The notes: generated by a model not told the origin, from the letters alone. 32,000 nucleotides of DNA from Candidatus Brocadia sp. (GCA_021650915.1 CP091279.1:120001-152000), one strand, 5' to 3'; positions 2,102-32,000 are shown, numbered from the stretch's first letter. Translations and numbers: made by a program.

Positions 2102-3860
2102 ATGTGCCTGCTTTACTCCTTTTCAAAGGTTTTCAGGTAATCTGGTGCAATTGATTCTATCAATAATCTCAAGGCATGCAAGGGAATTTACTCGTAGTGA
2201 AGGAAATATTGCACATTTCGTAATACATTAGTTTTTTAGCAGGGGGCGAAGCATCTGCCCTATTGGGTAAGAGCGCATGTATGTCGGTTATAGCAAATCC
2301 TTCGTCTCTATCCTGGGTGGTAAACATCGCTGTTATCCGGATTTTTCGAAAAACGAAATCGACTTTTGATTTATGGGCGTTCCTGGTATTATCTCCGGCA
2401 TTTTCCCGTTGATTTTCTCCGGAGATACATCATAATGTTAAGGACAGAAGATCTTTCGGCATGTCCGTTTCATTGGCGTTAAACTTAGCCCGAATGAGTC
2501 AGAAGAGACGAATTCGTAGCACAAAATGGTGAATCAGCCCTGTCGGGGCTAATGTGGTCATATTTTTGCTAACCCGACTTTCGCAATTCGAGGGGTATAC
2601 AACCCGCTAAGCCAGGAAAATCAAGGGGTCATGTAAAAAGGTCGGCACTACAGGCCGACCTGCCCGGATACGTAAACCTTGGGCGGCGGTTGTTCAGGAA
2701 GCGTTAATCCCAACTGCGCCAAAAGGAGTAAAACGTCCTTCTCCGGCTGGGTATAACGGCTCATGACAATATGACGGCCATCCGTGGTCGGTAAATGAAC
2801 GTCTATCATTTGAATGCCCGACAGTTTTTCCAAAATCGCTTCAGACGTCAGCCCTCCGGCCCTCCCCCGCGCAAGATTGCGCAGTGTCGTGTGGAGACAA
2901 AAAGCCAAAAAGGAAACAAAGATATGGGCTTCAATTCTCCGTTCCAATTGATGCCATAGGGGGCGGACGGAAAGAGACCCCTTCAAGTCCTTAAATGCCT
3001 GTTCTATCCGCGTCAACAGCAAATAATTTTCCCAGACGGTTTCTGGCGCGGCGGCCTGCATGTTGGAACGAAGCAAATAACGCCCCTCGCGCCGATACGC
3101 CTGCCTCAGGCGTTCCCGATCCAAACTGAACCGGAACGTATTCTCATTGACCGGTTCCTGCGGTTTGGGAATGGAGATCGTGACCAGTCTGTAGTCTCGT
3201 CCGGCTTCTTTCTTTAACGCGCCAATATGCATGAGCAGGTCATCGCGCGTGAGGGCTTTTCGATTGCGAAGTTCGCGCAGGCCCATCCACAAACGTCTGA
3301 GTCTGCGCCTACGCATGGCACGCTCCTTAGACACCCGGTCATGGCTTTCCACGTAAACGTAAAACTCCGATTCCTGCCGAAGAACTTTCACGCGGACACT
3401 CTCCCTCGCCTGCATCCAGGTTTGTTCGAGCAACGGTTTTTCTACTCGCGTCAAATGTCCCTTCGGAGTCCCAACCAAATAATCAATCCCGCGCTCACGC
3501 ATCTTTTCCAACATCTCCTCCGTTGGAATACCGCGATCCATAAGCCAGGTGCGCCGGAATTTCCCATACTGCTTTTCAATCCGATCCAGAAATTCCTCCA
3601 GCGTTGCGGTGTCTCTGGTATTGCCCGGATACACTTCGTAGGCCACGGGAAATCCTTCCGGCGTTAACACCAATGCCACTACCACCTGCACGCAATCCGA
3701 ACGTTTGTCCCGGCTATATCCAAACCGTTTCTTACTCCCCGATCCAGTCGGAGGTGGGTCACTTTCAAAATACGTACTCGTCAAATCATACAGCAGCACA
3801 TCGTACTTCGCCCCAAAGAGTTTTCCCCACTTCTCCTTTAAATAGGCAAACAACTCGTCC

Positions 3861-5868
3861 AGCTGGTAGGAAGGAGGCGAACCGCCTCCAACCCCCAATC
3901 GTCGCCAGATACTTTGGACAACGTGACAAAGTATCCTTTTAAACCATACGGCTTTCCCGTAGTTAGCGACCCCATAGTGTTGCTCTGGAGCAGAGAAAAG
4001 TAAACTATCATGCCTTCGCACGTGCCTTAAGAAATTCTCTTTCAAATGAGAGTAACCCCATCTTAAAGAATCGGTGTACCGGGAAACGTTTGTTGTCAGT
4101 TTTCCATTTTCTCGAAAACTTGAAACTTCTCAGTCTCATGCGTACCCAGCAGTCTAACGAGCGATATACCGTTTGTACATTGCCCAGCCGAAAATAGTTG
4201 ACATGTCCCCTTATGACAGGATTTAATGTATCAATGACGGCTTGCAGGTTGACGCCTTGTGTGCGTTTGGTGATGTCTCTAACGGCGTCCTTGAGTTTGT
4301 CCAGGGATTTCATGCTTACACCCTTGTTCTTGCCCATGAAATTATATCCGAGAAACCGGAAGCCTCGTTTGAAGTTGGTGAGCCTGGTTTTATCCTCGCT
4401 CAGCTTCATTTCAAGTTTCCCTTCGATGATTTCTTTGACGTACTGAAGGGCGGTAGGGAGTTCTTCTTTTGTTTTAGTCATGACAACGAAGTCATCGGCA
4501 TAGCGGACAAATTTATATCCTGCCTTTTCAAGCTCCTTGTCGATGATGTCACCGATAAGGTTTGCAAGCAAGGGAGATATGACGCCTCCTTGCGGAGTGC
4601 CTTGATTTGTCTCATGCACGATGCCGTCCTCCATGACCCCTGCCTTGAGCATGTTCTCGATACTGTTCAAAACCCATCCGTCAGCGATTTTCTCACGCAA
4701 GGAGTTCATGATAAGCTTGTGAGGTATGGTGTCATAGAACGCCTTTATATCGGCGTCCAAAATGTTCCGATACCCTTGCTGCTTATACTGTTCAATCCGT
4801 TTGATAGCATCATGACAGCATCTGTTTGGACGAAATCCAAAGCTGTTATCTGAGAATTCTTTCTCGAATATTGGCTCTATGATTTGTCTGAACGCCTGCT
4901 GTACTACCCTGTCCTTGACAATGGGAATGCCAAGAGGTCTCTTGTCATGCCTGCCTTTGGGAATGTAGCCCCTTAAGACGGGCGCAGGGTTGTATATGGC
5001 GGTTTTCAGTTCCCTGTGAATAGCTTGTAGATTATTCTCAAGGTCACTTTCAAACTGCTTAATACTTACCCTGTCGAGACCAGCCTTGCCTTTATTCTTC
5101 TTTACGTGCCCAAAAGCCGCATAAAGGTTTCTCAGACTGAATACCTTGTCTCTTAAAGAATGATACTTAAGCATCTCCCGATATGTTCCTTTTGATTGAT
5201 TCCGGATAATAGACTTGTCAATCGTGTTTCCTGAGTCGAGATTCCTCCTGACAGAGGCAAAACAAGAGAGTCTCTTGCTACTACTTGCCCATGCAAAGAG
5301 TCTCTTTTCTCATGGAACGTATTCAATCTACCACGTTTCATCAACTCCACTACGGTTATGCCCCTTCATTCCTGGTACACACCAGAAACTATTATGAGCA
5401 CTGCTGACGACTTCAAAGACAGACCTGTGAGAGCCAGTCGTCCGTCACCATCTCATACAGCTTGGATTTCGGATTTCCCTTATACCTCGCTGTTAGGGAA
5501 TTTCTTCCCAAGACGTAAGTCCTCCCCCGGTCATATGAATTACCCCTTTTCCCTTCGTGATGTATGTTCAAACGCATTATCCAGAGATGTTTTCACCAGG
5601 TCTTTTTTTTTTTGACATCTCCAACAAGGACATTGTCAGTGCTTCACTGAGAAAGGGCAGTTGGCACGAACTAACACGCCATACTCATACACCCCAAAAG
5701 GTCGTCTGTACCTCGTAACTCCGTCATACCCCTCACGGGAATACGCTATCCTTCTACGCACACGGATTGCTCCTTTGTATACGCATAGGTACAAACTTCT
5801 CTACGAGGATCTAGGCTCGCAGAGGTGATATTTTCAACCACTTAGGTATCCCATACTTCAAGGCACGC
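3861..5868 (-). mobile_element. Group II intron (~2.0 kb) inserted in the IS-A transposase gene, same orientation
   Basis: Boundaries come from alignment with the uninterrupted copy E, where ..LLEHR|DELFAYL.. is continuous. About 690 nt of RNA lie 5' of the ORF and 147 nt lie 3' of it. Confidence 0.8.
4008..5174 (-). CDS. Group II intron reverse transcriptase/maturase, with no obvious endonuclease domain
   Basis: 388 aa. RT motifs seen are RPLGIPIVKDRVVQ, GFRPNR, DADIKAFYDTI, QGTPQGGVISPLLAN and the catalytic YADDFVV. The maturase X motif is LNPVIRGHVNYF. The C-terminus is short, with no HNH motif seen. Confidence 0.9.
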   Translation of the reverse strand: MLKYHSLRDKVFSLRNLYAAFGHVKKNKGKAGLDRVSIKQFESDLENNLQAIHRELKTAIYNPAPVLRGYIPKGRHDKRPLGIPIVKDRVVQQAFRQIIEPIFEKEFSDNSFGFRPNRCCHDAIKRIEQYKQQGYRNILDADIKAFYDTIPHKLIMNSLREKIADGWVLNSIENMLKAGVMEDGIVHETNQGTPQGGVISPLLANLIGDIIDKELEKAGYKFVRYADDFVVMTKTKEELPTALQYVKEIIEGKLEMKLSEDKTRLTNFKRGFRFLGYNFMGKNKGVSMKSLDKLKDAVRDITKRTQGVNLQAVIDTLNPVIRGHVNYFRLGNVQTVYRSLDCWVRMRLRSFKFSRKWKTDNKRFPVHRFFKMGLLSFEREFLKARAKA

Positions 5869-6625
5869 CGATGCTCAAGCAACAAATCCAAACAACGATA
5901 CGCCTTGTCCTTCTGCGCCAGGGAATAATCCTCTCCCAGCAGATCACCTATTGCGCTCCGCACGTACCACTCACGGTGAAAACGAAATTCGCTTCCCGGA
6001 TCGGTCAACCGGTAACAGACAAGCGCCTTCAGGATATTCAGCCAGCTTGTTCCCTTCCGGCTTGACGGCAGACGCTTTCTCCAAAATGCGTCCAGTTCCA
6101 GCATATCCCATACATGCAATCCCAACCAGCTTGCTCCCCACTCCCGTGGATGGCGCAGCTCTATTTTGTCCAATCTCACCTGAACGGTCTCACCATCCGG
6201 TATCGGCATGGCTTCCCGGTCATCCGGAAACAATGCCAGTTGTCTTGGTTTCGGTTCTTTACCCGACACCGCCTCTATCGTCCGAATCCACCCAGCCCGT
6301 TGATTGTCATTGAGTTCTCCCAAATAGAGAACCTGCCGCTGCACCACCCTTCTTCCGCTGACCCGGTGGTTCTCTACCACACTCCAATAACGGTGGGTTT
6401 TTCCATCTTTCGTTCATGTCTTTTCCCGGAGAAACATGCGAGCATTTTCGCACTTCCTCCTGCATGCGTCAAGAGGGTAGGTCGGCACTACAAGCCGTTT
6501 TGAAAATTCACCCCTTGAATATCACGGGTTTCCTGGCGACTCTTGCCCAAAAATAAACTTTTTTGGGCGCGAATTGCGAAAGTCGGGCTAAAGGCGTTAA
6601 AAGCACTTTGGAAGACTTGGTTTCT

Positions 6626-7488: not shown

Positions 7489-8833
7489 GGTTCTTCTCCC
7501 AATTAGTCAATAAGAATTGAGAAGAAAATCCTTTAAATCATTGAAAAGAGTGGACATTTGGTGTTTCCTATAGATAGATATATACCGTTCTATAAACTAT
7601 TTACAGGAGACCAGCAATGTCCACGTTAAGTATATTACCATATTTTCCTTTTCAGCGGGTAAGAATTACGAAGCAAACTGTTTTTCCTGATGCTGAGATA
7701 TCTCAGCTTACTGCCGTGCCCGATGAACGATTTCGTCCAATATGTCATGCGTGTAGCAGCAAGGCACAGCGCATTTACCGCCATGACAAACGATCTTTGC
7801 GGGATCTGAATCCTGGTTCAGTTCGCGTATGGATAAATTGTTCGTATCGTAAGATTGCCTGTGAGCCGTACAATAGAATCGTAGTTGAAGACTTAGGGTT
7901 TTTTCAACCCTACAGTCGTGTTGCGCATCGTTTAGCAGCGTATATTCACGAATTGTGTAAAGTGTTAACCGTAACCGAAGTTGCAAAACATTTTGGAATT
8001 AACTGGAAAACCGTAAAAACCATCGACAAGTTTTTTCTGGAACGACAATACGCGCAGACAGATTATCAGAATCTTCGCATACTGGCGGTAGACGAAATCT
8101 CTGTTAAGAAGGGACAGCGCTATTTGACCGTTGTTCTGGACTATCTGAGTGGCCGCGTAGTCTGGGTGGGAAAGGAAAGAACAAAAGAAACCCTGGGAAC
8201 CTTCTTTGCGGGTATGACAGAGGAACAAAGGCAGGCGCTTGAGGCCATTGCCATGGATATGTGGGATCCTTATATTCATGCAGTAAAAAAGCACGTGCCT
8301 CATGTTAAGATAGTCTTTGACCTGTTTCATGTGGTTTCAAGTTTTGGTAAAGTTATTGACAAGGTGAGAAATGCTGAATATCAAAAAGCATCGAAGAAGG
8401 ATAAGGACGTCATCAAGGGTTCAAAATATCTTTTGTTAAAAAATAAACGAAATATTCGCAGGAAAAAACACCGAGAACATCTCAAACAGCTCTTGTCGCT
8501 TAATGAAACCATAAATACCATTCTGATTCTTAAAGATAAACTCAAACATATTTGGACCTATACCTCACGGACGTGGGCGAGAAAAGCCATTGATGAATGG
8601 AGCCTCCTGGCGAAAACGCTCAACTATTCTGTCGTGAATACGTTTGCAAATATGCTTACAAAATACCGCTACGGAATCTTGAATCACTGTGATTATAAAA
8701 TTCATACCAGTAAACTCGAAGGGGTTAATAATAAGATCAAAGTTATCAAAAGAAAAGCTTATGGATTTCATGACGAACGGTACTTTTCATTAAAAATTAT
8801 ACAAGCTTTTGCAAACTAATTGGGAGAAGAACC
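7489..8833 (+). mobile_element. ISL3-family insertion sequence, complete (1345 bp)
   Basis: Perfect 18 bp terminal inverted repeats: GGTTCTTCTCCCAATTAG (7489-7506) and CTAATTGGGAGAAGAACC (8816-8833). They enclose one intact transposase ORF. Confidence 0.9.
7617..8819 (+). CDS. ISL3-family transposase
   Basis: 400 aa. N-terminal Cys/His zinc-finger-like region (CHACSSKAQRIYRHDKRSLRDL..C..C), then a DDE core (LAVDEISVKKGQRYLTVV.., DMWDPY, EGVNNKIKVIKRKAYGF) typical of ISL3. Confidence 0.9.
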   Translation: MSTLSILPYFPFQRVRITKQTVFPDAEISQLTAVPDERFRPICHACSSKAQRIYRHDKRSLRDLNPGSVRVWINCSYRKIACEPYNRIVVEDLGFFQPYSRVAHRLAAYIHELCKVLTVTEVAKHFGINWKTVKTIDKFFLERQYAQTDYQNLRILAVDEISVKKGQRYLTVVLDYLSGRVVWVGKERTKETLGTFFAGMTEEQRQALEAIAMDMWDPYIHAVKKHVPHVKIVFDLFHVVSSFGKVIDKVRNAEYQKASKKDKDVIKGSKYLLLKNKRNIRRKKHREHLKQLLSLNETINTILILKDKLKHIWTYTSRTWARKAIDEWSLLAKTLNYSVVNTFANMLTKYRYGILNHCDYKIHTSKLEGVNNKIKVIKRKAYGFHDERYFSLKIIQAFAN

Positions 8834-9188
8834 CCTTTTCAGCGGGTAAGAATTACGCAGCAAACTGTTTTTCCTGATGCTGAGATATCTCAGCTTACTG
8901 CCGTGCCCGATGAACGATTTCACCCAATATGTCATGCGTGTGGCAGCAAGGCACAGCGCATTTACCGTCATGACAAACGATCTTTGCGGGATCTGAATCC
9001 TGGTTCAGTTCGCGTATGGATAAATTGTTCGTATCGTAAGATAGCCTGTGAGTCATGCAATCGAATTGTAGTTGAAGACTTGGGTTTTTTTCAACCCTAC
9101 AGTCGTGTTACGCATCGTTTAGCAGCGTATATTCACGAATTGTGTAAAGTGTTAACCGTAACCGAAGTTGCAAAACATTTTGGAATTA
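8834..9188 (+). pseudogene. Fragment of a second ISL3 copy (equivalent to 7647-8001 of the intact copy)
   Basis: About 95% identical to the 5' third of the intact ISL3. It starts directly after the right inverted repeat of the intact copy and diverges after 9188. ORF 8903-9262 is the truncated transposase N-terminus. Confidence 0.85.
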
Positions 9189-12972: not shown

Positions 12973-13010
12973 TTATATTCATGCAGTAAAAAAGCACGTG
13001 CCTCATGTTA
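12973..13010 (+). other. 38 bp ISL3 fragment (equivalent to 8270-8307)
   Basis: Exact identity with TTATATTCATGCAGTAAAAAAGCACGTGCCTCATGTTA of the intact ISL3. It lies between the IS-B right end and the IS-A copy E end. Confidence 0.8.
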
Positions 13011-13086
13011 ACCCGACTTTCGCAATTCGAGGGGTATACAACCCGCTAAGCCAGTAAAATCAAGGGGTCATGTAAAAAGGTCGGCA

Positions 13087-14937
13087 CTACAGGCCGACCT
13101 GTCCGGATGCGTAAACCTTGGGCGGCGGTTGTTCAGGAAGCGTTAATCCCAATTGTGCCAAAAGGAGTAAAACGTCCTTCTCCGGCTGGGTATAACGACT
13201 CATGACAATATGACGGCCATCCGTGGTCGGTAAATGAACGTCTATCATTTGAATGCCCGACAGTTTTTCTAAAATCGCTTCCGACGTCAGCCCTCCGGCC
13301 CTCCCCCGCGCAAGATTGCGCAGCGTCGTGTGGAGACAAAAAGCCAAAAAGGAGACAAAGATATGGGCTTCAATTCTCCGTTCCAGTTGGTGCCATAGGG
13401 GACGGAGGGAAAGCGATCCCTTCAAGTCCTTAAATGCCTGTTCTATCCGTGTCAACAGCAAATAATTTTCCCAGACGGTTTCTGGCGCGGTGGCCTGCAT
13501 GTTGGAGCGAAGCAAATAACGCCCCTCGCGCCGATACGCCTGCCTCAGGCGTTCCCGATCCAAACTGAACCGGAACGTATTCTCATTGACCGGTTCCTGC
13601 GGTTTGGGAAGGGAGATCGTAACCAGCCTGAAGTCTCGTCCGGCTTCTTTCTTTAACGCGCCAAGATGCATGAGCAGGTCATCGCGCGTGAGGACTTTTC
13701 GATTGCGAAGTTCGCGCAGACCCATCCACAAACGTCTGAGTCTGCGCCTACGCATGGCACGCTCCTTAGACACCCGGCCATGGCTTTCCACGTAAACGTA
13801 AAACTCCGATTCCTGCCGAAGAACTTTCACGCGGACGCTCTCCCTCGCCTGCATCCAGGTTTGTTCGAGCAACGGTTTTTCTACTCACGTCAAATGCCCC
13901 TTCGGAGTCCCAACCAAATAATCAATCCCGCGCTCACGCATCTTCCCCAACATCTCCTCCGTTGGAATACCTCTATCCATAAGCCAGGTACGCCGGAATT
14001 TCCCATACTGCTTTTCGATCCGATCCAGAAATTCCTCCAACGTTGCGGTGTCTCTGGTATTGCCCGGATACACTTCGTAGGCCACGGGAAATCCTTCCGG
14101 AGTCAACACCAACACCAACACCAACACCAACACCACTACCACCTGCACGCAATCCGAACGGTTGTCCCGACTGTATCCAAAACGTTTCTTACTCCCCGAT
14201 CCAGTCGGAGGTGGGTCACTTTCAAAATACGTACTCGTCAAATCATACAGCAGTACATCGTACTTCGCCCCAAAGAGCTTGCCCCACTTCTCCTTTAAAT
14301 AGGCAAACAGCTCGTCCCGATGCTCAAGCAACAAATCCAAACAACGATACGCCTTGTCCTTCTGCGCCAGGGAATAATTCTCTCCCAGCAGATCGCCTAT
14401 TGCGCTGCGCACGTACCACTCACGGTGAAAACGAAATTCGCTTCCCGGATCGATCAACCGGTAACAGACAAGCGCCTTCAGTATATTCAACCAGCTTGTC
14501 CCCTTCCGGCTTGACGGCAGACGCATCCTCCAGAATGTGTCCAGTTCCAGCATATTCCATACATACAATCCCAACCAGCTTGCTCCCCACTCCCGTGGAT
14601 GGCGCAGCTCTATTTTGTCCAACCTCACCCGAACTGTCTCACCATCCGGTATCGGCATGGCTTCCCGGTCATCCGGAAACAATGCCAGTTGTCTTGGTTT
14701 CGGTTCTTTACCCGACACCGCCTCTATCGTCCGAATCCACCCAGCCCGTTGATTGTCATTGAGTTCTCCCAAATAGAGAACCTGCCGCTGCACCACCCTT
14801 CTTCCGCTGACCCGGCGGTTCTCCACCACGCTCCAATAACGGTGGGTTTTCCCATCTTTCGTTCGTGTCTTTTCCCGGAGAAACATGCGAGCATTTTCGC
14901 ACTTCCTCCTGCATGCGTCAAGAGGGTAGGTCGGCAC
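13087..14937 (-). pseudogene. IS-A transposase with a CGA>TGA nonsense codon and an in-frame hexanucleotide expansion
   Basis: ORFs 13885-14937 and 13087-13872 are collinear with the intact protein. TGA at 13885-13887 (minus strand) replaces the Arg codon of GHLT-R-VEKP. VVALVLT is replaced by VVVLVLVLVLVLT. Confidence 0.85.
14104..14133. repeat. (CAACAC)5 tandem hexanucleotide repeat inside the copy E transposase gene
   Basis: Five perfect CAACAC units. The other copies have AACACCAATGCC at this place, so copy E is 18 bp longer and stays in frame. Confidence 0.9.
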
Positions 14938-17084: not shown

Positions 17085-17134
17085 AAAAAAAGCCTTACTG
17101 CAAAGATTTTTCAAAACATCTTCGGCAGTAAGGC
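17085..17134 (-). terminator. Rho-independent terminator or attenuator hairpin upstream of the small ORF
   Basis: On the minus strand: GCCTTACTGC-cg-AAGAT-loop-ATCTT-t-GCAGTAAGGC followed by TTTTTTT. It lies 28 nt upstream of the GTG and 58 nt upstream of the ATG. Confidence 0.65.
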
Positions 17135-17144
17135 TGTCTTTATT

Positions 17145-17233
17145 CCTGGGGATCGTGTTTTCTAAACCACTTCCGTGTCGGCTTAAAGATCCACTACTTT
17201 GCGCCCCCTGATCACTCAGGGTTTACCTTTCTC
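17145..17233 (-). promoter_or_regulatory. Candidate c-di-GMP-I (GEMM-like) riboswitch aptamer
   Basis: Minus-strand RNA: GAGAAAGGUAAACC-CUGA-GUGA-UCAG-GGGGCGCAAAG-UAGUGGAUCUUUAAGCC..GGUUUAGAAAACACGAUCC. It resembles the GEMM-I pattern GGCAAACC, hairpin with GNRA loop, GGGACGCAAAGCC, second hairpin. There are two deviations in conserved positions (U for C, G for A). Confidence 0.35.
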
Positions 17234-17387
17234 GTTATGTTTCCTAAAATGATAATTCGCAAAATAGTAGCCATTGAAAGGTAATAATAACAATTTTAGT
17301 GAATTATTTCATAATTCCCTGAATTCATGAGGCTTACAAATAGGAAAAGTCTAGGAATAGCTAACGGTAAGCGAAAGGAGGTTGGCA

Positions 17388-21061: not shown

Positions 21062-21146
21062 TGGGCGAGGTGGGAGTCGAACCCACACAACCTTTAAGGG
21101 TCAAAGGATTTTAAGTCCTTCGTGTCTGCCATTCCACCACTCGCCC
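21062..21146 (-). tRNA. tRNA-Leu (anticodon UAA)
   Basis: Hand-folded cloverleaf: acceptor GGGCGAG/CTCGCCC, anticodon stem AAGGA/TCCTT with loop CTTAAAA, long variable arm, T arm GTGGG-TTCGACT-CCCAC. CCA is not encoded. Confidence 0.9.
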
Positions 21147-21304: not shown

Positions 21305-21377
21305 AGGCGGCTCTGGGATTCGAACCCAGGATAACGGTTTTGCAAACCGTGGCCTTAGTCCACTTGGCGAAGCCGCC
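21305..21377 (-). tRNA. tRNA-Cys (anticodon GCA)
   Basis: Acceptor GGCGGCT/AGCCGCC, anticodon stem ACGGT/ACCGT with loop TTGCAAA, T arm CCTGG-GTTCGAAT-CCCAG. Confidence 0.9.
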
Positions 21378-26368: not shown

Positions 26369-26404
26369 CTAGAATATAAAAAACACCAAACACCCTGCAT
26401 CGCC
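26369..26404. repeat. 36 bp direct repeat, first copy (second copy at 28634-28669)
   Basis: CTAGAATATAAAAAACACCAAACACCCTGCATCGCC directly precedes the left end of both IS-A copy C and copy D. In the second copy the CTAG is also the last 4 nt of copy C. Confidence 0.9.
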
Positions 26405-26507
26405 TTAACCCGACATTAGCAATTCGCGCCCAAAAAAGTTTATTTTTGGGCAAGAGTCGCCAGGAAACCCGTGATATTCAAGGGGTGAATTTTCAAAACG
26501 GCTTGTA

Positions 26508-28558
26508 GTGCCGACCTACCCTCTTGACGCATGCAGGGGGAAGTGCGAAAATGCTCGCATGCTTCTCCGGGAAAAGACACGAACGAAAGATGGAAAAACC
26601 CACCGTTATTGGAGCATGGTGGAGAACCGCCGGGTCAGCGGAAGAAGGGTGGTGCAGCGGCAGGTTCTCTATTTGGGAGAACCCAATGACAACCAACGCG
26701 CTGGGTGGGTTCGGACGATAGAGGCGGTGTCGGGTAAAGAACCCAGGCCAAGACAACTGGCATTGTTTCCGGACGACCGGGAAGCCATGCCGATACCGGA
26801 TGGTGAGACCGTTCAGGTGAGATTGGACAAAATAGAGCTGCGCCATCCACGGGAGTGGGGAGCAAGCTGGTTGGGATTGTATGTATAGTATTACTGTATA
26901 AAAACTTCTTTTTTCTGTGAGTTTTTTCACAAACCCCTTTCAGGAGGTACCGTTTTTTATGAGTGAAAGATTGCTTCGCTTCACTCGCAATGACAGCATG
27001 CAGTGTACCATCAAAGTGCATGGCCGGTGTCATTGCGAGGGCCTTTTCCGAAGCAATCTCCCCGCTTTCATAAAGGAAATTTGGTTGTGGCTGTGCCGCG
27101 CTATGGAATATGCTGGAACTGGACACATTCTGGAGGATGCGTCTGCCGTCAAGCCGGAAGGGGACAATCTGGTTGAATATACTGAAGGCGCTTGTCTGTT
27201 ACCGGTTGATCGATCCGGGAAGCGAATTTCGTTTTCACCGTGAGCGGTACGTGCGCAGCGCAATAGGCGATCTGCTGGGAGAGGATTATTCCCTGGCGCA
27301 GAAGGACAAGGCGTATCGTTGTTTGGATTTGTTGCTTGAGCATCGGGACGAGCTGTTTGCCTATTTAAAGGAGAAGTGGGGCAAGCTCTTTGGGGCGAAG
27401 TACGATGTACTGCTGTATGATTTGACGAGTACGTATTTTGAAAGTGACCCACCTCCGACTGGATCGGGGAGTAAGAAACGGTTTGGATATAGCCGGGACA
27501 AACGTTCGGATTGCGTGCAGGTGGTAGTGGCATTGGTGTTAACGCCGGAAGGATTTCCCGTGGCCTACGAAGTGTATCCGGGCAATACCAGAGACACCGC
27601 AACGCTGGAGGAATTTCTGGATCGGATTGAAAAGCAGTATGGGAAATTCCGGCGCACCTGGCTTATGGATCGCGGTATTCCAACGGAGGAGATGTTGGAA
27701 AAGATGCGTGAGCGCGGGATTGATTATTTGGTTGGGACTCCGAAGGGACATTTGACGCGAGTAGAAAAACCGTTGCTCGAACAAACCTGGATGCAGGCGA
27801 GGGAGAGCGTCCGCGTGAAAGTTCTTCGGCAGGAATCGGAGTTTTACGTTTACGTGGAAAGCCATGACCGGGTGTCTAAGGAGCGTGCCATGCGTAGGCG
27901 CAGACTCAGACGTCTGTGGGTGGGCTTGCGCGAACTTCGCAATCGAAAAGCCCTCACGCACGATGACCTGCTCATGCATATTGGCGCGTTAAAGAGAGAA
28001 GCCGGACGAGACTACAGGCTGGTCACGATCTCCATTCCCAAACCGCAGGAACCGGTCAATGAGAATACGTTCCGGTTCAGTTTGGATCGGGAACGCCTGA
28101 GGCAGGCGTATCGGCGCGAGGGGCGTTATTTGCTTCGTTCCAACATGCAGGCCACCGCGCCAGAAACCGTCTGGGAAAATTATTTGCTGTTGACACGGAT
28201 AGAACAGGCATTTAAGGACTTGAAGGGGTCTCTTTCCGTCCGCCCCCTATGGCATCAATTGGAACGGAGAATTGAAGCCCATATCTTTGTTTCCTTTTTG
28301 GCTTTTTGTCTCCACACGACACTGCGCAATCTTGCGCGGGGGAGGGCCGGAGGGCTGACGTCTGAAGCGATTTTGGAAAAACTGTCGGGCATTCAAATGA
28401 TAGACGTTCATTTACCGACCACGGATGGCCGTCATATTGTCATGAGTCGTTATACCCAGCCGGAGAAGGACGTTTTACTCCTTTTGGCACAATTGGGATT
28501 AACGCTTCCTGAACAACCGCCGCCCAAGGTTTACGCATCCGGACAGGTCGGCCTGTAG
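26508..28558 (+). pseudogene. IS-A transposase interrupted after ..WLGLYV by the 215 bp element
   Basis: ORFs 26508-26888 and 27110-28558 are the N- and C-terminal parts. The junction in intact copy E reads LYVWNMLELD. Confidence 0.85.
26887..27101. mobile_element. 215 bp insertion without terminal inverted repeats, carrying a long imperfect palindrome and flanked by TAT
   Basis: Absent from copies B and E. TAT lies on both sides (26884-26886 and 27102-27104). Palindrome: GATTGCTTCG..CTCGCAATGACA (about 26970-26995) pairs with TGTCATTGCGAG..CGAAGCAATC (about 27029-27058). Confidence 0.75.
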
Positions 28559-28633
28559 TGCCGACCTTTTTACATGACCCCTTGATTTTACTGGCTTAGC
28601 GGGTTGTATACCCCTCGAATTGCGAAAGTCGGG

Positions 28634-28669
28634 CTAGAATATAAAAAACACCAAACACCCTGCATCGCC
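28634..28669. repeat. 36 bp direct repeat, second copy
   Basis: Identical to 26369-26404. Confidence 0.9.
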
Positions 28670-29258
28670 TTAACCCGACATTAGCAATTCGCGTCCAAAA
28701 AAGGTTATTTTTGGGCAAGAGTCGCCAGGAAACCCGTGATATTCAAGGGGTGAATTTTCAAAACGGCTTGTAGTGCCGACCTACCCTCTTGACGCATGCA
28801 GGGGGAAGTGCGAAAATGCTCGCATGCTTCTCCGGGAAAAGACACGAACGAAAGATGGAAAAACCCACCGTTATTGGAGCATGGTAGAGAACCGCCGGGT
28901 CAGCGGAAGAAGGGTGGTGCAGCGGCAGGTTCTCTCTTTGGGAGAACTCAATGACAATCAACGGGCTGGGTGGGTTCGGACGATAGAGGCGGTGTCGGGT
29001 AAAGAACCCAGGCCAAGACAACTGGCATTGTTTCCGGATGACCGGGAAGCCATGCCGATACCGGATGGTGAGACCGTTCGGGTGCGGTTGGACAAAATAG
29101 AGCTGCGCCATCCGCGGGAGTGGGGAGCAAGCTGGTTGGGATTGTATGTATAGTATTACTGTATAAAAACTTCTTTTTTCTGTGAGTTTTTTCACAAACC
29201 CCTTTCAGGAGGTACCGTTTTTTATGAGTGAAAGATTGCTTCGCTTCACTCGCAATGG

Positions 29259-29264
29259 TAATAT
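29259..29264 (+). promoter_or_regulatory. -10 box (TAATAT) of the same junction promoter
   Basis: It starts at the second nucleotide of the IS110 left end and faces the transposase gene. Confidence 0.55.
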
Positions 29265-29396
29265 GAAAAAGCAGCGTCCTTCCAAGGAGGTTAAAAAGCC
29301 TTGAATAGGCGATAACCTTTTGTGATATTAAATATCATAAAGGCTTTAGACCACCAATTAAGGTGGTAAGTCTTTAAACCTTGGAAAGGAGGCTGT

Positions 29397-30407
29397 ATGA
29401 TAAAGTATATAGGATTGGATGCACATTCGTCAACATGTACATTCAATGTGACGGATGAAAGAGGGAGGGAAGTAGACAACACTACGATTGAGAGCAATGG
29501 CCGGCTTTTGGTGAAGTATGTGAGGGGAGTGGAGGGTGTTAAGAAACTGACCTTTGAAGAGTGTGAATTAAGCAACTGGCTGTATGAGATATTGAGACCA
29601 GAAGTAGATGAGTTGATCGTATGCAATCCAGTAGCAAACGGAGACTACAAGAAGAAAAAGACGGACAAGATGGATGCCAGGAAGCTGTCGAATCTTTTGC
29701 GAGGAGGTTTTCTCGTACCGGTATATCATGATGGTTCAAAGAGGGAGAGGTTAAGGAGTTTAATGTCCGGGTATCAGGATTTCATTGAAGAGGGTGTGAG
29801 GCTAAAGAACCGATACAAATCCTTATTTCGGAAAAGTGGGAAGAAAATCAAAGGTGAAGCGTTATATAACGACGAGAGTTTCCTGGAAGGATTAGAGCGA
29901 AGAGACTTTCAATTTATTGGCACGCAGATCTATCAGCTTTTAGAGAAGATGGAAGAAGGCAGGCAGGAATATGTAAAAGAGATCGTTCGATGCAGTAAGG
30001 GATTTAAAGAGATAAAATATCTCAAGAGCATTCCCGGCATTGGGAGTATCCAGGCGGCGAAGATCGTATCACAGGTAATAGACCCGGAGAGGTTTAGCAG
30101 TAAGTACAAATATTACAGCTACTGTGGGTTGGTGAGGCATAAGAGGATAAGTGATGGGAGGGGATATGGGAGTGAAAAGATTTGGGGAAATCGGATATTA
30201 AAATGCGTATACAAGATGGCAGGACATTCGGTTTTAAAGGGTAAGAGCGGTTTAAGGAACTATTACGATACCTTGCGGTTGAAAGGCATCGGTCATGACA
30301 ATGCCTATAATGCAGTATGTCGTAAGATAGCGGCAATATCTTTAAGCGTGTGGAGGAAGAGTGAGAAATATAATGACAGACTGATCACTGGCAATCTAAT
30401 CAAGTAA
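29397..30407 (+). CDS. IS110-family DEDD transposase/recombinase
   Basis: 336 aa. N-terminal RuvC-like DEDD region (IGLDAH.., FEECE.., KTDKMDARKL). C-terminal Tnp domain with SIPGIGSIQAAKI and ISDGRGYGSEKIWGNRILK. AAGGAGG lies upstream of the ATG. Confidence 0.9.
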   Translation: MIKYIGLDAHSSTCTFNVTDERGREVDNTTIESNGRLLVKYVRGVEGVKKLTFEECELSNWLYEILRPEVDELIVCNPVANGDYKKKKTDKMDARKLSNLLRGGFLVPVYHDGSKRERLRSLMSGYQDFIEEGVRLKNRYKSLFRKSGKKIKGEALYNDESFLEGLERRDFQFIGTQIYQLLEKMEEGRQEYVKEIVRCSKGFKEIKYLKSIPGIGSIQAAKIVSQVIDPERFSSKYKYYSYCGLVRHKRISDGRGYGSEKIWGNRILKCVYKMAGHSVLKGKSGLRNYYDTLRLKGIGHDNAYNAVCRKIAAISLSVWRKSEKYNDRLITGNLIK

Positions 30408-30414
30408 AACAGGG

Positions 30415-30580
30415 CAAGAGGGCATGAAAGGCTGGTTCGCACCTGTTTTCTTGAGAGAGGGATGAGATCCACGTGTCATTGACCCAAAGAGGTCCAACGC
30501 AATGGTTGATCCGCCCTCGTTTAAATCGAAAATTACCATGCTCAGCAAAGAGCACCGATAGATGACTGAAAACCGATTGC
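30415..30580 (+). ncRNA. Candidate bridge (guide) RNA in the 3' non-coding end of the IS110-family element
   Basis: Two internal loops of the same build. Loop 1: GUGUCAUU-[GACC CAAAGA GGUC]-CAA-CGCAAUGGU. Loop 2: AUUACCAU-[GCUC AGCAAA GAGC]-ACCG-AUAGAUGAC. The strands match the target and the joined donor ends around the ATG core (see findings). Confidence 0.5.
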
Positions 30581-30742
30581 CGAAGGTATTTCAGAGAAGG
30601 TAGTAGAAAGAAAACGATAATAATCTGTTTGTCATTCATGCACTCAGGACTTTATGGCTTGATTAGCCTCAGTTAAGCGGAAGGGACGCATGGCAAGAAA
30701 ACATTTCTTTGGTTTTTTTGTCAACAGGGATAATATTTTTTC

Positions 30743-30748
30743 TTGACA
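30743..30748 (+). promoter_or_regulatory. -35 box (TTGACA) of a promoter completed only when the IS110 ends are joined
   Basis: TTGACA lies 13 nt from the right end. With the ATG core and the first G of the left end, the spacer to TAATAT (29259-29264) is 17 nt. Confidence 0.55.
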
Positions 30749-32000
30749 TGCTTTTTCATAGATGACAACGTACAATATGTCATCGGAGGCATAGTCGGTG
30801 TCATTGCGAGGGCCTTTTCCGAAGCAATCTCCCCGCTTTCATAAAGGAAATTTGGTTGCGGCTGTGCCGCGCTATGGAATATGCTGGAACTGGACACATT
30901 CTGGAGGATGCGTCTGCCGTCAAGCCGGAAGGGGACAAGCTGGTTGAATATACTGAAGGCGCTTGTCTGTTACCGGTTGATCGATCCGGGAAGCGAATTT
31001 CGTTTTCACCGTGAGTGGTACGTGCGGAGCGCAACAGGCGATCTGCTGGGAGAGGATTATTCCCTGGCGCAGAAGGACAAGGCGTATCGTTGTTTGGATT
31101 TGTTGCTTGAGCATCGGGACGAGCTGTTTGCCTATTTAAAGGAGAAGTGGGGCAAGCTCTTTGGGGCGAAGTACGATGTACTGCTGTATGATTTGACGAG
31201 TACGTATTTTGAAAGTGACCCACCTCCGACTGGATCGGGGAGTAAGAAACGGTTTGGATATAGCCGGGACAAACGTTCGGATTGCGTGCAGGTGGTAGTG
31301 GCATTGGTGTTAACGCCGGAAGGATTTCCCGTTGCCTACGAAGTGTATCCGGGCAATACCAGAGACACCGCAACGCTGGAGGAATTTCTGGATCGGATTG
31401 AAAAGCAGTATGGGAAATTCCGGCGCACCTGGCTTATGGATCGCGGTATTCCAACGGAGGAGATGTTGGAAAAGATGCGTGAGCGCGGGATTGATTATTT
31501 GGTTGGGACTCCGAAGGGGCATTTGACGCGAGTAGAAAAACCGCTACTCGAACAAACCTGGATGCGGGCGAGGGAGAGCGTCCGCGTGAAAGTTCTTCGG
31601 CAGGAATCGGAGTTTTACGTTTACGTGGAAAGCCATGACCGGGTGTCTAAGGAGCGTGCCATGCGTCGGCGCAGACTCAGACGTCTGTGGGTGGGCTTGC
31701 GCGAACTTCGCAATCGAAAAGCCCTCACGCGCGATGACCTGTTCATGCATATTGGCGCGTTAAAGAAAGAAGCCGGACGAGACTACAGACTGGTCACGAT
31801 CTCCATTCCCAAACCGCAGGAACCGGTCAATGAGAATACGTTCCGGTTCAGTTTGGATCGGGAACGCCTGAGGCAGGCGTATCGGCGCGAGGGCGTTATT
31901 TGCTTCGTTCCAACATGCAGGCCACCGCGCCAGAAACCGTCTGGGAAAATTATTTGCTGTTGACACGGATAGAACAGGCATTTAAGGACTTGAAGGGGTC

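What the first reader, a model, noticed from the sequence alone, without database searches (positions are those of the whole stretch)
30415..30580. Two matching guide loops downstream of the IS110 transposase: a candidate bridge RNA
**Sequence matches.** The 354 nt between the transposase stop and the right end of the element contain four short matches, all centred on the ATG core shared by both junctions.
- (a) 30498-30506 CGCAATGGT is identical to the left junction 29251-29259. That is 4 nt of left target, ATG, and 2 nt of the element's left end.
- (b) 30474-30481 TGTCATTG is the reverse complement of CAATGACA, the unoccupied target (26988-26995 in copy C).
- (c) 30558-30566 ATAGATGAC is identical to the right junction 30758-30766. 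That is 4 nt of the element's right end, ATG, and 2 nt of right target.
- (d) 30532-30539 ATTACCAT is the reverse complement of ATGGTAAT (29255-29262), the core plus the element's left end.

**Layout.** Matches (b) and (a) flank a 4 bp stem with a 6 nt loop (GACC CAAAGA GGUC). Matches (d) and (c) flank a similar one (GCUC AGCAAA GAGC), closed by AATCG/CGATT (30524-30528 and 30574-30578). One loop therefore reads both strands of the target and the other reads both strands of the joined donor ends.

**Interpretation.** The 2 nt extensions in (a) and (c) match the opposite partner, like the handshake guides described for IS621. IS110-family elements are known to use such bispecific RNAs. A 3' location is what I recall for the IS1111 subgroup. 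I found no comparable matches in the 139 nt 5' end.
Basis: partly seen in the sequence, partly recalled or inferred. Interest (0 to 1): 0.85.

Follow-up and report, generated by a model that had tools for sequence, protein, structure and literature searches.

The report
Bridge RNA of an IS1111-like element
The stretch after the transposase gene of this mobile element encodes a structured guide RNA (a bridge or seekRNA) that tells the enzyme where to insert; this is a known kind of system, found here in a previously undescribed branch.

Summary
The four matches are exact and not chance: 0 of 3000 shuffles reproduce all four, and 1 of 3000 reproduces two.

The element spans 29258-30764 in a Ca. 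Brocadia genome. It has an IS110-type DEDD recombinase, 11-bp subterminal inverted repeats and a long 3' non-coding end.

Ten other copies of the same element, and about 90 relatives at 50-98% recombinase identity, carry the same RNA scaffold.
- **Left guide.** The 5 nt before the constant UGGUUG (segment a) equal the left flank in nearly every locus. There are 23 distinct guides, and 0 of 20000 permutations do as well.
- **Right guide.** The nucleotides before the constant UCAUUG (segment b) are complementary to the right flank, and the match fades after 3-6 nt.
- **Stems.** Compensatory changes support the stems.

This is an IS1111-type bridge RNA/seekRNA with a well-supported target loop.

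- The core is TG, not ATG.
- The RNA domain is 30445-30615, closed by a long-range helix.
- The proposed AATCG/CGATT stem is weak.
- Segment (d) pairs with a downstream segment (30599-30604) in a covarying helix, so it is not exposed.

Donor reading by the second module is plausible but cannot be tested, because the ends do not vary. I file this as a new member of a known kind.

The parts
29258..30764 (+). The insertion sequence, 1507 bp when one copy of the TG core is counted. The core copies are at 29256-57 and 30763-64.
   Evidence: Compared the occupied and empty copies of the host repeat. The same ends appear in 10 further copies and about 90 relatives. Coordinates checked.
29262..29272 (+). 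Left subterminal inverted repeat, TATGAAAAAGC.
   Evidence: It is the reverse complement of 30750-30760. The two repeats change together in relatives, for example ATGGAAAAAC/GTTTTTCCAT, ATAAAAAAG/CTTTTTTAT and ATGAAAAGG/CCTTTTCAT.
30750..30760 (+). Right subterminal inverted repeat, GCTTTTTCATA.
29397..30407 (+). Recombinase gene, 336 aa, with DEDD_Tnp_IS110 and Transposase_20 domains.
   Evidence: Pfam PF01548 E=5e-11 and PF02371 E=3e-10. NCBIfam IS110 model E=1e-37, 130 bits, below the 140-bit cut-off.
30445..30615 (+). Structured RNA domain, 171 nt: the predicted bridge RNA / long seekRNA.
   Evidence: MFE and centroid give the same architecture, z=-3.0, with 0 of 200 shuffles folding as well. 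The scaffold is conserved in all relatives that have enough sequence. G-U pairs in the helices favour the + strand.
30445..30452 (+). 5' strand of the basal helix P1, GUUUUCUU. It pairs with 30608-30615.
   Evidence: Compensatory variants include GTTTTCGT/ACGAAAAC, GTTTCCGT/ACGGAAAC, GTTTCCTT/AAGGAAAC and CTTTTGC/GCAAAAG. Own-sequence pairing scored 601.5 against 506.7 +/- 9.7 for permuted partners, with 0 of 200 permutations as high.
30608..30615 (+). 3' strand of the basal helix P1, AAGAAAAC.
30457..30469 (+). 5' strands of the stem that closes the target loop: GAGGG 30457-61 and GAUC 30466-69.
   Evidence: They pair with CCCUC 30514-18 and GAUC 30508-11. The pairs are 97-98% formed, and 8 of 9 show changes on both sides.
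30472..30481 (+). 5' side of the target loop, CGUGUCAUUG. It is the guide for the top strand: core TG plus the right target ACAC(G). The trailing UUG is constant across the family.
   Evidence: The reverse complement of this segment matches the right flank. Identity is 1.0, 0.97, 0.76, 0.50 and 0.44 at right-target positions 1-5, then falls to background. 0 of 20000 permutations do as well. Examples: L087 CTACGG, L097 CGTAAA, L098 AGTTGA.
30481..30494 (+). Inner hairpin of the target loop, GACC-CAAAGA-GGUC.
   Evidence: 98.7% paired. Variants GAUC/GAUC and GGCC/GGCC occur.
30498..30506 (+). 3' side of the target loop. [quoted passage not shown] The next two bases, GU, equal the first 2 nt of the left end and are the candidate handshake.
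   Evidence: Identity to the left flank is 0.89-1.0 at the 5 nt plus core, and 0.1 two positions further out. There are 23 distinct guides. 0 of 20000 permutations do as well. GU versus left-end GT is invariant in 88 of 88 loci.
30508..30518 (+). 3' strands of the stem that closes the target loop: GAUC 30508-11 and CCCUC 30514-18.
30532..30539 (+). AUUACCAU. It is complementary to the circle junction ATG|GTAAT, so it is the candidate guide for the donor's left end. It is also paired with 30599-30604.
   Evidence: Exact match. Helix with segment X appears in the MFE and centroid folds and is supported by covariation.
30540..30553 (+). Hairpin of the second module, GCUC-AGCAAA-GAGC.
   Evidence: 100% paired and nearly invariant.
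30558..30566 (+). AUAGA plus UG equals the right end plus core: the candidate guide for the donor's bottom strand. The next two bases, AC, equal the first 2 nt of the right target. The segment is single-stranded in the predicted fold.
   Evidence: Exact match. Invariant in the family, as is the right end ATAGATG. It has the same 5+2 length as the target guide. Unpaired in the folds.
30566..30594 (+). 3' hairpin, CUGAAAACC...GGUAUUUCAG. The apex varies in relatives.
   Evidence: MFE and centroid folds. Apical stems differ in relatives: CCG/CGG, CTG/CAG and TTGAC/GTCAA. My alignment count for the lower stem was run one base off register (30567-72 with 30590-95) and gave 55% paired, so that number is not informative.
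30599..30604 (+). Segment X, GGUAGU (GGUAAU in most copies). It pairs with 30532-30537.
   Evidence: Own-sequence pairing scored 415.5 against 374.5 +/- 5.6 for permuted partners, with 0 of 300 permutations as high. Pair 30537:30599 is UA 17, CG 5, AU 4. Pair 30532:30604 is AU 27, GC 4.
30743..30748 (+). TTGACA, the -35 half of a promoter that forms only when the ends are joined. Its -10, TAATAT, lies at 29259-64, with a 17-nt spacer.
   Evidence: Read directly from the sequence. No other + strand promoter-like site lies between the gene and the RNA. A junction promoter is described for ISEc11 in PMC11187229.
26986..26995 (+). Empty target site CGCAATGACA in the neighbouring copy of the host repeat. 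Further perfect sites lie on the other arms, at 27028-37 (-) and 30799-808 (-).

Best explanation
**What it is.** Bases 30445-30615 (+) encode a bridge RNA, also called a long seekRNA, of about 171 nt. It belongs to an IS1111-like insertion sequence at 29258-30764.

**Architecture.** A basal helix (30445-52 with 30608-15) encloses two modules.

**Module 1, the target-binding loop.**
[quoted passage not shown] - The preferred site is therefore CGCAA-TG-ACAC, in the stem of a palindromic repeat.

**Module 2, the donor-related module.**
- It carries AUAGAUG, which equals the right end plus core. This segment is single-stranded in a multi-loop.
- It carries AUUACCAU, which is complementary to the core plus the left end. 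In the free RNA this segment is held in a helix with a downstream mimic, GGUAGU.
- I infer that these two segments read the joined ends of the excised circle.

**How it works (inferred).** The DEDD recombinase exchanges strands at the TG core, as shown for IS621.

**Expression (inferred).** The RNA is probably co-transcribed with the recombinase gene from the promoter created at the circle junction, TTGACA-17 nt-TAATAT, and then processed.

**Shown here:** the conserved structure, guide-to-flank covariation for both sides of the target loop, and site-specific insertion.

**Inferred only:** transcription, protein binding, donor reading and chemistry.
For: - **Not chance.** The four matches are exact and are not reproduced by shuffling.
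- **Recombinase and ends.** IS110-type recombinase domains. 11-bp subterminal repeats that covary between the two ends. The 3' non-coding end is 357 nt against 139 nt at the 5' end.
- **Site specificity.** Ten further copies of the identical recombinase are all flanked by CTCGCAATG|ACA, with differing outer flanks.
- **Conserved scaffold.** About 99 relatives from genomes and metagenomes keep the scaffold. Variation is confined to two short stretches of the first loop.
- **Guides track flanks.** Those two stretches track the left and right flanks, with 0 of 20000 permutations doing as well in each case. The left guide has a sharp 5+2-nt boundary.
- **Helices.** The target-loop helices are 97-99% paired with many compensatory changes. 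0 of 500 shuffles reach the observed covariation score of 0.211 (shuffled mean 0.105), and versions with the partner slid by 1-3 columns score 0.025-0.068. P1 and the D5:X helix are supported by own-versus-permuted tests.
- **Fold.** The MFE and centroid folds reproduce the architecture, z=-3.0.
- **Agreement with the literature.**
  - IS1111-group bridge RNAs lie in the right end, with donor-binding nucleotides often in a multi-loop (PMC11208160).
  - In IS1111 seekRNAs the top-strand match lies 5' of the bottom-strand match, and the only promoter is at the junction (PMC11187229).
Against: - **No expression data.** Nothing here shows that the RNA exists or binds the recombinase.
- **No curated model match.** No Rfam 15 family matches the region.
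- **Donor reading is unconfirmed.** The right end ATAGATG, the left end GT and the corresponding RNA segments are invariant, so covariation cannot test it.
- **One donor segment follows RNA, not DNA.** In the left-end-complementary segment, the two positions opposite the core vary (CA, UA, AA, AG, GA, GC, AC). They follow the downstream RNA partner, not the invariant DNA core.
- **A target-only RNA can suffice.** For ISEc11, an 82-nt target-only seekRNA was sufficient in a mini-IS assay (PMC11187229).
- **The recombinase is an outlier.** It scores 130 bits against NCBIfam's 140-bit cut-off, and it is 26-28% identical to the best-listed plasmid IS110 genes (under 60% in every matching record).
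Confidence: 0.85

Rival explanations
1. It is a target-only seekRNA plus scaffold. Module 1 guides target choice as above. The second module (30519-30607) is structural or a protein-binding scaffold. The donor ends would then be recognised by the recombinase through the subterminal inverted repeats. On this view, the matches of (c) and (d) to the ends are incidental or left over from ancestry.
For: - Segment (d) is in a covarying RNA-RNA helix, and its core-opposed positions do not track the DNA.
- The donor-matching segments never vary, so nothing shows that they are guides.
- The 82-nt ISEc11 seekRNA alone supported movement (PMC11187229).
- The subterminal repeats covary with each other as a recognition element would.
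Against: - The two modules are built alike. Each has a top-strand-complementary stretch, then CA, then a hairpin, then a 5+2-nt bottom-strand guide plus 2 nt.
- Matches of 9 and 8 nt to the two ends, both spanning the core, occur in 0.8% and 1.1% of shuffles.
- AUAGAUG is single-stranded in the fold.
- In the GTAAA-ended clade the segment reads UUUAC, matching the end and not its RNA partner. This is probably one evolutionary event.
- Durrant et al. report donor-complementary nucleotides in IS1111 bridge RNAs.
Confidence: 0.12
2. The matches are chance or trivial. The four short matches arise because an AT-rich non-coding end happens to share ATG-centred words with the junctions.
For: Each match is only 8-9 nt.
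Against: - 0 of 3000 shuffles give all four matches, and 1 of 3000 gives two.
- The guide positions covary with the flanks across dozens of loci.
Confidence: 0.01
3. The region is something else conserved. Candidates are a 3' UTR stability or terminator structure, a small ORF on either strand (for example 30400-30639 on the - strand, 79 aa), or DNA-level recombinase-binding sites.
For: ORFs of 50-79 aa overlap the region on the - strand. The - strand also folds well, z=-2.75.
Against: - Variation is confined to two short guide stretches, and compensatory changes keep the helices. This is an RNA pattern, not a codon pattern.
- G-U pairs in the helices would be A-C mismatches on the - strand.
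- No terminator-like site lies on the + strand.
- None of these alternatives explains why the variable stretches equal the flanks.
Confidence: 0.02

Closest known systems
IS1111-family seekRNA (ISEc11, ISPa11, ISKpn4; Siddiquee et al. 2024, PMC11187229)
   Same: - The RNA is encoded in the long non-coding region downstream of the recombinase gene.
- The top-strand match lies 5' of the bottom-strand match, and the two overlap at the insertion point.
- The target is a palindromic repeat, as for ISPa11 in REP sequences.
- The element has subterminal inverted repeats.
- The only recognisable promoter is the one formed at the circle junction.
- Natural retargeting occurs by changes in the two target-matching stretches, as between ISEc11 and ISXne4.
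   Different: - The recombinase is very distant. It falls below the NCBIfam IS110 cut-off, and the best-listed plasmid IS110 genes are 26-28% identical.
- The hosts are anammox Planctomycetota, Omnitrophota, Elusimicrobia and similar uncultured groups.
- Whether a short form of about 80 nt is processed out is unknown.
- The 171-nt domain is closed by a long-range helix. It contains a helix that pairs the left-end-complementary segment with a downstream mimic. I did not find this described in the papers I read.
IS621 bridge RNA (IS110 group; Durrant et al. 2024, PMC11208160; Hiraizumi et al. 2024, PMC11208158)
   Same: - It is a bispecific RNA with two paralogous modules.
- Each guide pair reads opposite strands and overlaps at a dinucleotide core: CT in IS621, TG here.
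- Guide lengths are similar (5+2 and about 2+3-6 nt).
- A 2-nt extension of the 3'-side guides matches the opposite partner, like the handshake guides.
- A DEDD/Ser recombinase of about 330 aa.
   Different: - The RNA is encoded at the other end of the element.
- The order of strand reading within each loop is reversed. This is equivalent to IS621 read on the other strand.
- The subterminal repeats are long.
- The second module is a multi-loop, not a simple internal loop.
- The recombinase sequence search of solved structures did not return the IS621 chains. Its only hit was 9mty_A at E=2e-5.
ISPpu9 / Ssr9 of Pseudomonas putida (PMC12288879, abstract only)
   Same: It is an IS110-family element inserted in repetitive extragenic palindromes, with a small-RNA gene downstream of the transposase gene.
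   Different: I did not compare the two in detail. ISPpu9 has solo copies of its RNA gene elsewhere in the genome. No second copy of this RNA is present in the window.

Membership tests
IS110 family (DEDD recombinase elements) | Recombinase with an N-terminal DEDD/RuvC-like domain (PF01548) and a C-terminal Transposase_20 domain (PF02371) | tested here: met
   Both domains score above the Pfam cut-offs.
IS110 family (DEDD recombinase elements) | Score above the curated NCBIfam equivalog cut-off for NF033542 | tested here: not met
   130.1 bits against a cut-off of 140. E=1e-37 over the full length. This is a divergent member, not a non-member.
IS110 family (DEDD recombinase elements) | Site-specific insertion with no terminal inverted repeats and only a short shared core at both junctions | tested here: met
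   TG at both junctions. The same site is used in 11 copies. There is no duplication beyond the core.
IS1111 group | Subterminal inverted repeats of 7-17 bp | tested here: met
   11 bp, 29262-72 and 30750-60. They covary in relatives.
IS1111 group | The longer non-coding region lies downstream of the recombinase gene | tested here: met
   139 nt upstream against 357 nt downstream.
IS1111 group | Recombinase of 330-350 aa that groups with IS1111 transposases and carries the GL-P----S(T)G motif | tested here: inconclusive
   The length is 336 aa. The motif reads GLVRHKRISD here and ...SG in the clade consensus. The Ser is invariant, but the Pro is absent. I built no phylogeny with ISfinder members.
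Bridge RNA / seekRNA | Conserved structured non-coding RNA in the long non-coding end | tested here: met
   Covariation-supported helices across 58 relatives. Fold z=-3.0.
Bridge RNA / seekRNA | A loop whose two sides match opposite strands of the target, overlap at the core, and change when the target changes | tested here: met
   Guide-to-flank covariation on both sides, with 0 of 20000 permutations doing as well. Per-locus table.
Bridge RNA / seekRNA | A second loop that matches both strands of the joined donor ends | tested here: inconclusive
   Exact 9- and 8-nt matches exist. Both the ends and the RNA segments are invariant. One arm is held in an intramolecular helix.
Bridge RNA / seekRNA | Handshake nucleotides that match the non-cognate partner | tested here: inconclusive
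   Target-loop GU against left-end GT matches in 88 of 88 loci but never varies. For the donor-loop AC, the first base matches the first base of the right target in most events. The second base matches only when that base is C, with one concordant change to AU/AT.
Bridge RNA / seekRNA | The RNA is transcribed, binds the recombinase and is required for recombination | not testable with these tools
   No expression or biochemical data are available here.
Bridge RNA / seekRNA | Match to a curated covariance model | tested here: not met
   Rfam 15 has no hit in 29200-30800 at E<=10 other than noise. The published bridge RNA models were not available to me.

The most novel reading that the evidence does not exclude
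In this clade, the bridge RNA carries its own anti-guide. Segment X (30599-30604, GGUAGU/GGUAAU) copies the top strand of the element's left end. It keeps the left-end guide (30532-37) base-paired in the free RNA. Donor engagement would then need a conformational switch. For example, only the recombinase-bound RNA, or only the circle junction, could displace X. This would be a built-in gate on donor capture that has not been described for IS621 or for the IS1111 seekRNAs I read about.
Probability: 0.25. Interest if true: 0.6.

Novelty: new member of a known kind. Interest (0 to 1): 0.4.

Why it matters
- **It confirms the principle in a distant branch.** RNA-guided, dual-strand target reading extends to a deep, uncharacterised branch of the IS110 family, found in anammox bacteria and several candidate phyla. 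The evidence is an unusually clean natural reprogramming series: at least 23 different left guides on one scaffold.
- **It gives guide rules for an engineering candidate.** The system is compact, a 336-aa recombinase and a 171-nt RNA. The left guide is 5 nt plus a TG core. The right guide is the core plus about 3-6 nt. This could be tested for bridge editing.
- **It helps annotation.** It explains why assemblies of these genomes break at the CTCGCAATGAC palindromic repeats.
- **One point goes beyond confirmation.** The covarying helix that masks the left-end-complementary segment bears on an open question: whether and how IS1111-type RNAs read the donor.

Tried and rejected
- **Rfam.** Scans at gathering threshold over the whole window, and at E<=10 over 29200-30800, found nothing relevant in the element.
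It is only 65% paired across relatives. An alternative, GUUU 30519-22 with AAAC 30570-73, is 98% paired with a few compensatory changes: GCUU/AAGC and AUUU/AAAU. But it crosses the better-supported D5:X helix and overlaps the 3' hairpin, so I left it open.
- **Repeat-binding by CUGAAAA and UAUUUCA.** I asked whether these conserved motifs could read the subterminal repeats. They stay constant where the repeats change, so I dropped the idea.
- **Segment X as a copy of the left junction.** It matches in a few loci (L042, L059) but not consistently.
- **ATG as the core.** Rejected, because the A varies with the left target: CTG, GTG.
- **Energy-based strand choice.** Not decisive: z=-3.0 on the + strand against -2.75 on the - strand.
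- **Alignment-based count for P1.** Blurred by register shifts: 73.5% paired against 57-66% for slid versions. I replaced it with an own-versus-permuted test.
- **Literature search for Brocadia plus IS110.** No papers.
- **Placement of the recombinase among named IS1111 or IS110 elements.** Not possible. The best-listed plasmid hits are unnamed 'IS110 family transposase' genes at 26-28% identity.

Full report
**Observation.**

I asked how often dinucleotide-preserving shuffles of the 3' non-coding region (30408-30740) give a match of at least the observed length that spans the core. The four matches appeared in 12, 91, 25 and 33 of 3000 shuffles. Two of the four appeared together in 1 shuffle, and all four in none. 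The 139-nt 5' end has no target or junction match longer than 6 nt.

**The element.**

- The ORF at 29397-30407 (336 aa) carries DEDD_Tnp_IS110 and Transposase_20 domains.
- An identical protein is named as a transposase of Candidatus Brocadia sp. in public records.
- I compared the occupied copy of the host repeat with the empty copy 2.3 kb upstream. This places the ends at 29258 and 30764, with TG at both junctions.
- Four bases inside the left end (two inside the right) lie 11-bp inverted repeats: TATGAAAAAGC at 29262-72 and GCTTTTTCATA at 30750-60. They change together in relatives.
- Joining the ends would create a promoter: TTGACA, a 17-nt spacer, then TAATAT. No other + strand promoter-like site precedes the RNA region, and no + strand terminator follows it.
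- The recombinase is a distant family member.
  - It scores 130 bits against NCBIfam's IS110 model, whose cut-off is 140.
  - The best-listed plasmid-borne IS110 genes are 26-28% identical to it.
  - A sequence search of solved structures gave one weak hit, 9mty_A.

**Other copies.**

Ten other places encode the identical recombinase, in one JGI assembly and nine Logan assemblies. All are flanked by CTCGCAATG on the left and ACA on the right, while the outer flanks differ. The site lies in one arm of a palindromic repeat (CTCGCAATGACA ... TGTCATTGCGAG). Each repeat therefore offers the site on both strands. Three perfect empty sites lie in the window.

**Relatives and the covariation test.**

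- I fetched 99 loci that encode relatives at 50-98% identity. They come from Planctomycetota, Omnitrophota, Elusimicrobia and other metagenome-assembled genomes.
- The region after the stop codon is strikingly conserved in all of them. The exceptions are two short stretches: the 4-6 nt before a constant UCAUUG, and the 5 nt before a constant UGGUUG.
- I located the ends of each element from the conserved left-end and right-end sequences, without using the guides. I then compared guides with flanks.
- **Left side.** Identity is 0.89-1.0 over the five bases before the core and at the core. It drops to 0.1 two positions further out. So the left guide is 5 nt plus TG. With one event per distinct guide (23 guides), 113 of 138 positions match against 46 expected, and 0 of 20000 permutations do as well.
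- **Right side.** Complementarity is 1.0, 0.97, 0.76, 0.50 and 0.44 at right-target positions 1-5, then falls to background. Again 0 of 20000 permutations do as well.
- **Examples of retargeting.**
  - L097: left flank CAAGTG, right target CGTAAA.
  - L087: right target CTACGG.
  - L098: left flank TTACGTG, right target AGTTGA.
  - L094: left flank TCTGCTG, right target ACTTC.
- The base before TG varies with the left target (A, C or G). The true core is therefore TG, not ATG.

**Structure.**

On an alignment of 58 non-redundant relatives:
- The stems that frame the first loop are 97-99% paired with many compensatory changes. They are GAGGG/CCCUC, GAUC/GAUC and the inner hairpin GACC/GGUC.
- The hairpin GCUC/GAGC is invariant.
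- The whole set exceeds all 500 column shuffles and all slid controls.

Two further helices emerged.
- **P1.** This long-range basal helix pairs GUUUUCUU (30445-52) with AAGAAAAC (30608-15).
  - Independent compensatory variants include GTTTTCGT/ACGAAAAC, GTTTCCGT/ACGGAAAC, GTTTCCTT/AAGGAAAC and CTTTTGC/GCAAAAG.
  - Each sequence's own partner pairs better than permuted partners: 601.5 against 506.7 +/- 9.7, with 0 of 200 permutations as high.
- **D5:X.** Segment (d), AUUACC at 30532-37, pairs with GGUAGU at 30599-604.
  - Covarying forms include AUUACA/UGUAAU, UUACAA/UUGUAA, GUUAC/GUAAC, AGUACG/CGUACU and AUUAU/AUAAU.
  - Own-versus-permuted scores are 415.5 against 374.5 +/- 5.6, with 0 of 300 permutations as high.

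The 171-nt RNA 30445-30615 folds into exactly this architecture in both the MFE and centroid structures, z=-3.0. In that fold, segments (a), (b) and (c) are single-stranded and (d) is paired. G-U pairs in the helices favour the + strand.

**The second module.**

- AUAGAUG at 30558-64 equals the last five bases of the right end plus the core. This is the same 5+2 format as the left target guide.
- AUUACCAU is complementary to the core plus the first five bases of the left end.
- The two modules have the same layout. Each has a top-strand-complementary stretch, then CA, then a hairpin, then a 5+2 guide, then 2 nt.
- This parallel, and the low chance of the two matches, make donor reading likely.
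- It cannot be confirmed by covariation. The right end ATAGATG, the left end GT and the RNA segments do not vary in the family.
- The two positions of (d) opposite the core do vary. They follow the RNA partner X, not the DNA.
- The published record is mixed.
  - Durrant et al. note that in many IS1111 orthologues the donor-binding nucleotides sit in a multi-loop. That fits this fold.
  - Siddiquee et al. found a target-only 82-nt seekRNA sufficient for ISEc11. That keeps a scaffold-only reading of module 2 alive.

**Handshake.**

In IS621 the handshake nucleotides extend the 3'-side guides of each loop and pair with the other partner after strand exchange. The IS1111 order of strand reading is reversed. 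It is equivalent to IS621 read on the other strand; this is my inference.

The evidence for them is limited. GU against GT matches in 88 of 88 loci but never varies. The A of AC matches the first right-target base in most events. The C matches only when the target has C there. One lineage changed concordantly to AU with an AT target, and one did not.

**Comparison with what is known, and verdict.**

The element behaves like an IS1111-family member: subterminal repeats, a 3' non-coding RNA, top-then-bottom order, a palindromic-repeat target and a junction promoter. Its RNA behaves like the seekRNA or bridge RNA of that family. Membership of the IS1111 group by recombinase phylogeny was not tested. 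The motif evidence is mixed: GLVRHKRISD, with the Ser conserved. No Rfam model covers the RNA, and no paper links Brocadia with IS110.

I therefore file it as a new member of a known kind. In practice it is a new, well-populated clade. It carries one feature I did not find described in the papers I read: the helix that masks the left-end-complementary segment.

My confidence that this is a functional guide RNA directing target choice is about 0.85. My confidence that module 2 reads the donor as proposed is about 0.6.

Noticed in passing
30743-30748 with 29259-29264: Joining the element's ends would create a near-consensus promoter: TTGACA, a 17-nt spacer, then TAATAT. Both halves are conserved in relatives: ACATGC...CATAGATG on the right, and GTAAT/GTAAC/GTAAA followed by ATG on the left.
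   Followed up: partly
26369-28633 and 28634-32000; also 1-300: The insertion sits inside directly repeated copies, 2265 bp apart, of another mobile element. In each copy a 126-aa ORF and a 482-aa DDE_Tnp_1 transposase ORF are separated by about 220 nt. That spacer holds the palindromic repeat used as the target. The transposase gene may itself be split by the repeat.
   Followed up: no
26996-27027 versus 30767-30797: The loop of the palindromic repeat differs between the two host copies by about 12 transitions, one transversion and one indel in about 30 nt. The surrounding host copies are 98-99% identical. The window's variant recurs next to other copies of the IS (L002, L003). I have no explanation.
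   Followed up: partly
left flanks of L011-L109 (for example L047, L056, L019, L024): The same repeat arm (GATTGCTTCG ... CTCGCAATG|AC) flanks relatives in Omnitrophota, Elusimicrobia, Planctomycetota and a 'Nanoarchaeota' bin. This short palindromic repeat is therefore shared across very distant hosts and is the commonest target of the clade.
   Followed up: partly
29397-30407 (residues about 243-253): The motif around the conserved serine reads GLVRHKRISD in this copy. The clade consensus has SG. The protein also gives a sub-threshold match (58 bits) to the NCBIfam model for TIGR-Tas RNA-guided endonucleases.
   Followed up: no
L104 and L106, right junctions: Two loci share the guide of L021, L103, L105, L107 and L108 (predicted right target AGCATA) but have the right flank ATATCGG. 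This could be off-target insertion or a later rearrangement. L080 and L039 likewise have left flanks with 2-nt mismatches to their guides.
   Followed up: no
30409-30444: A hairpin lies between the stop codon and the RNA domain (ACAGG...CCUGU here). Relatives have hairpins of unrelated sequence at the same place. It may be a processing or stability element.
   Followed up: no
17121-17237 (-); 21062-21146 (-); 21305-21377 (-): A c-di-GMP-I riboswitch (50 bits) and two tRNA genes lie elsewhere in the window.
   Followed up: no
2567-2866 and 13006-13305; 5868-6167 and 14317-14616; 3666-3865 and 14123-14322; 7647-7946 and 8834-9133: Several other long direct repeat pairs, 94-97% identical, lie in the first half of the window. 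They suggest a duplicated block or further mobile elements.
   Followed up: no
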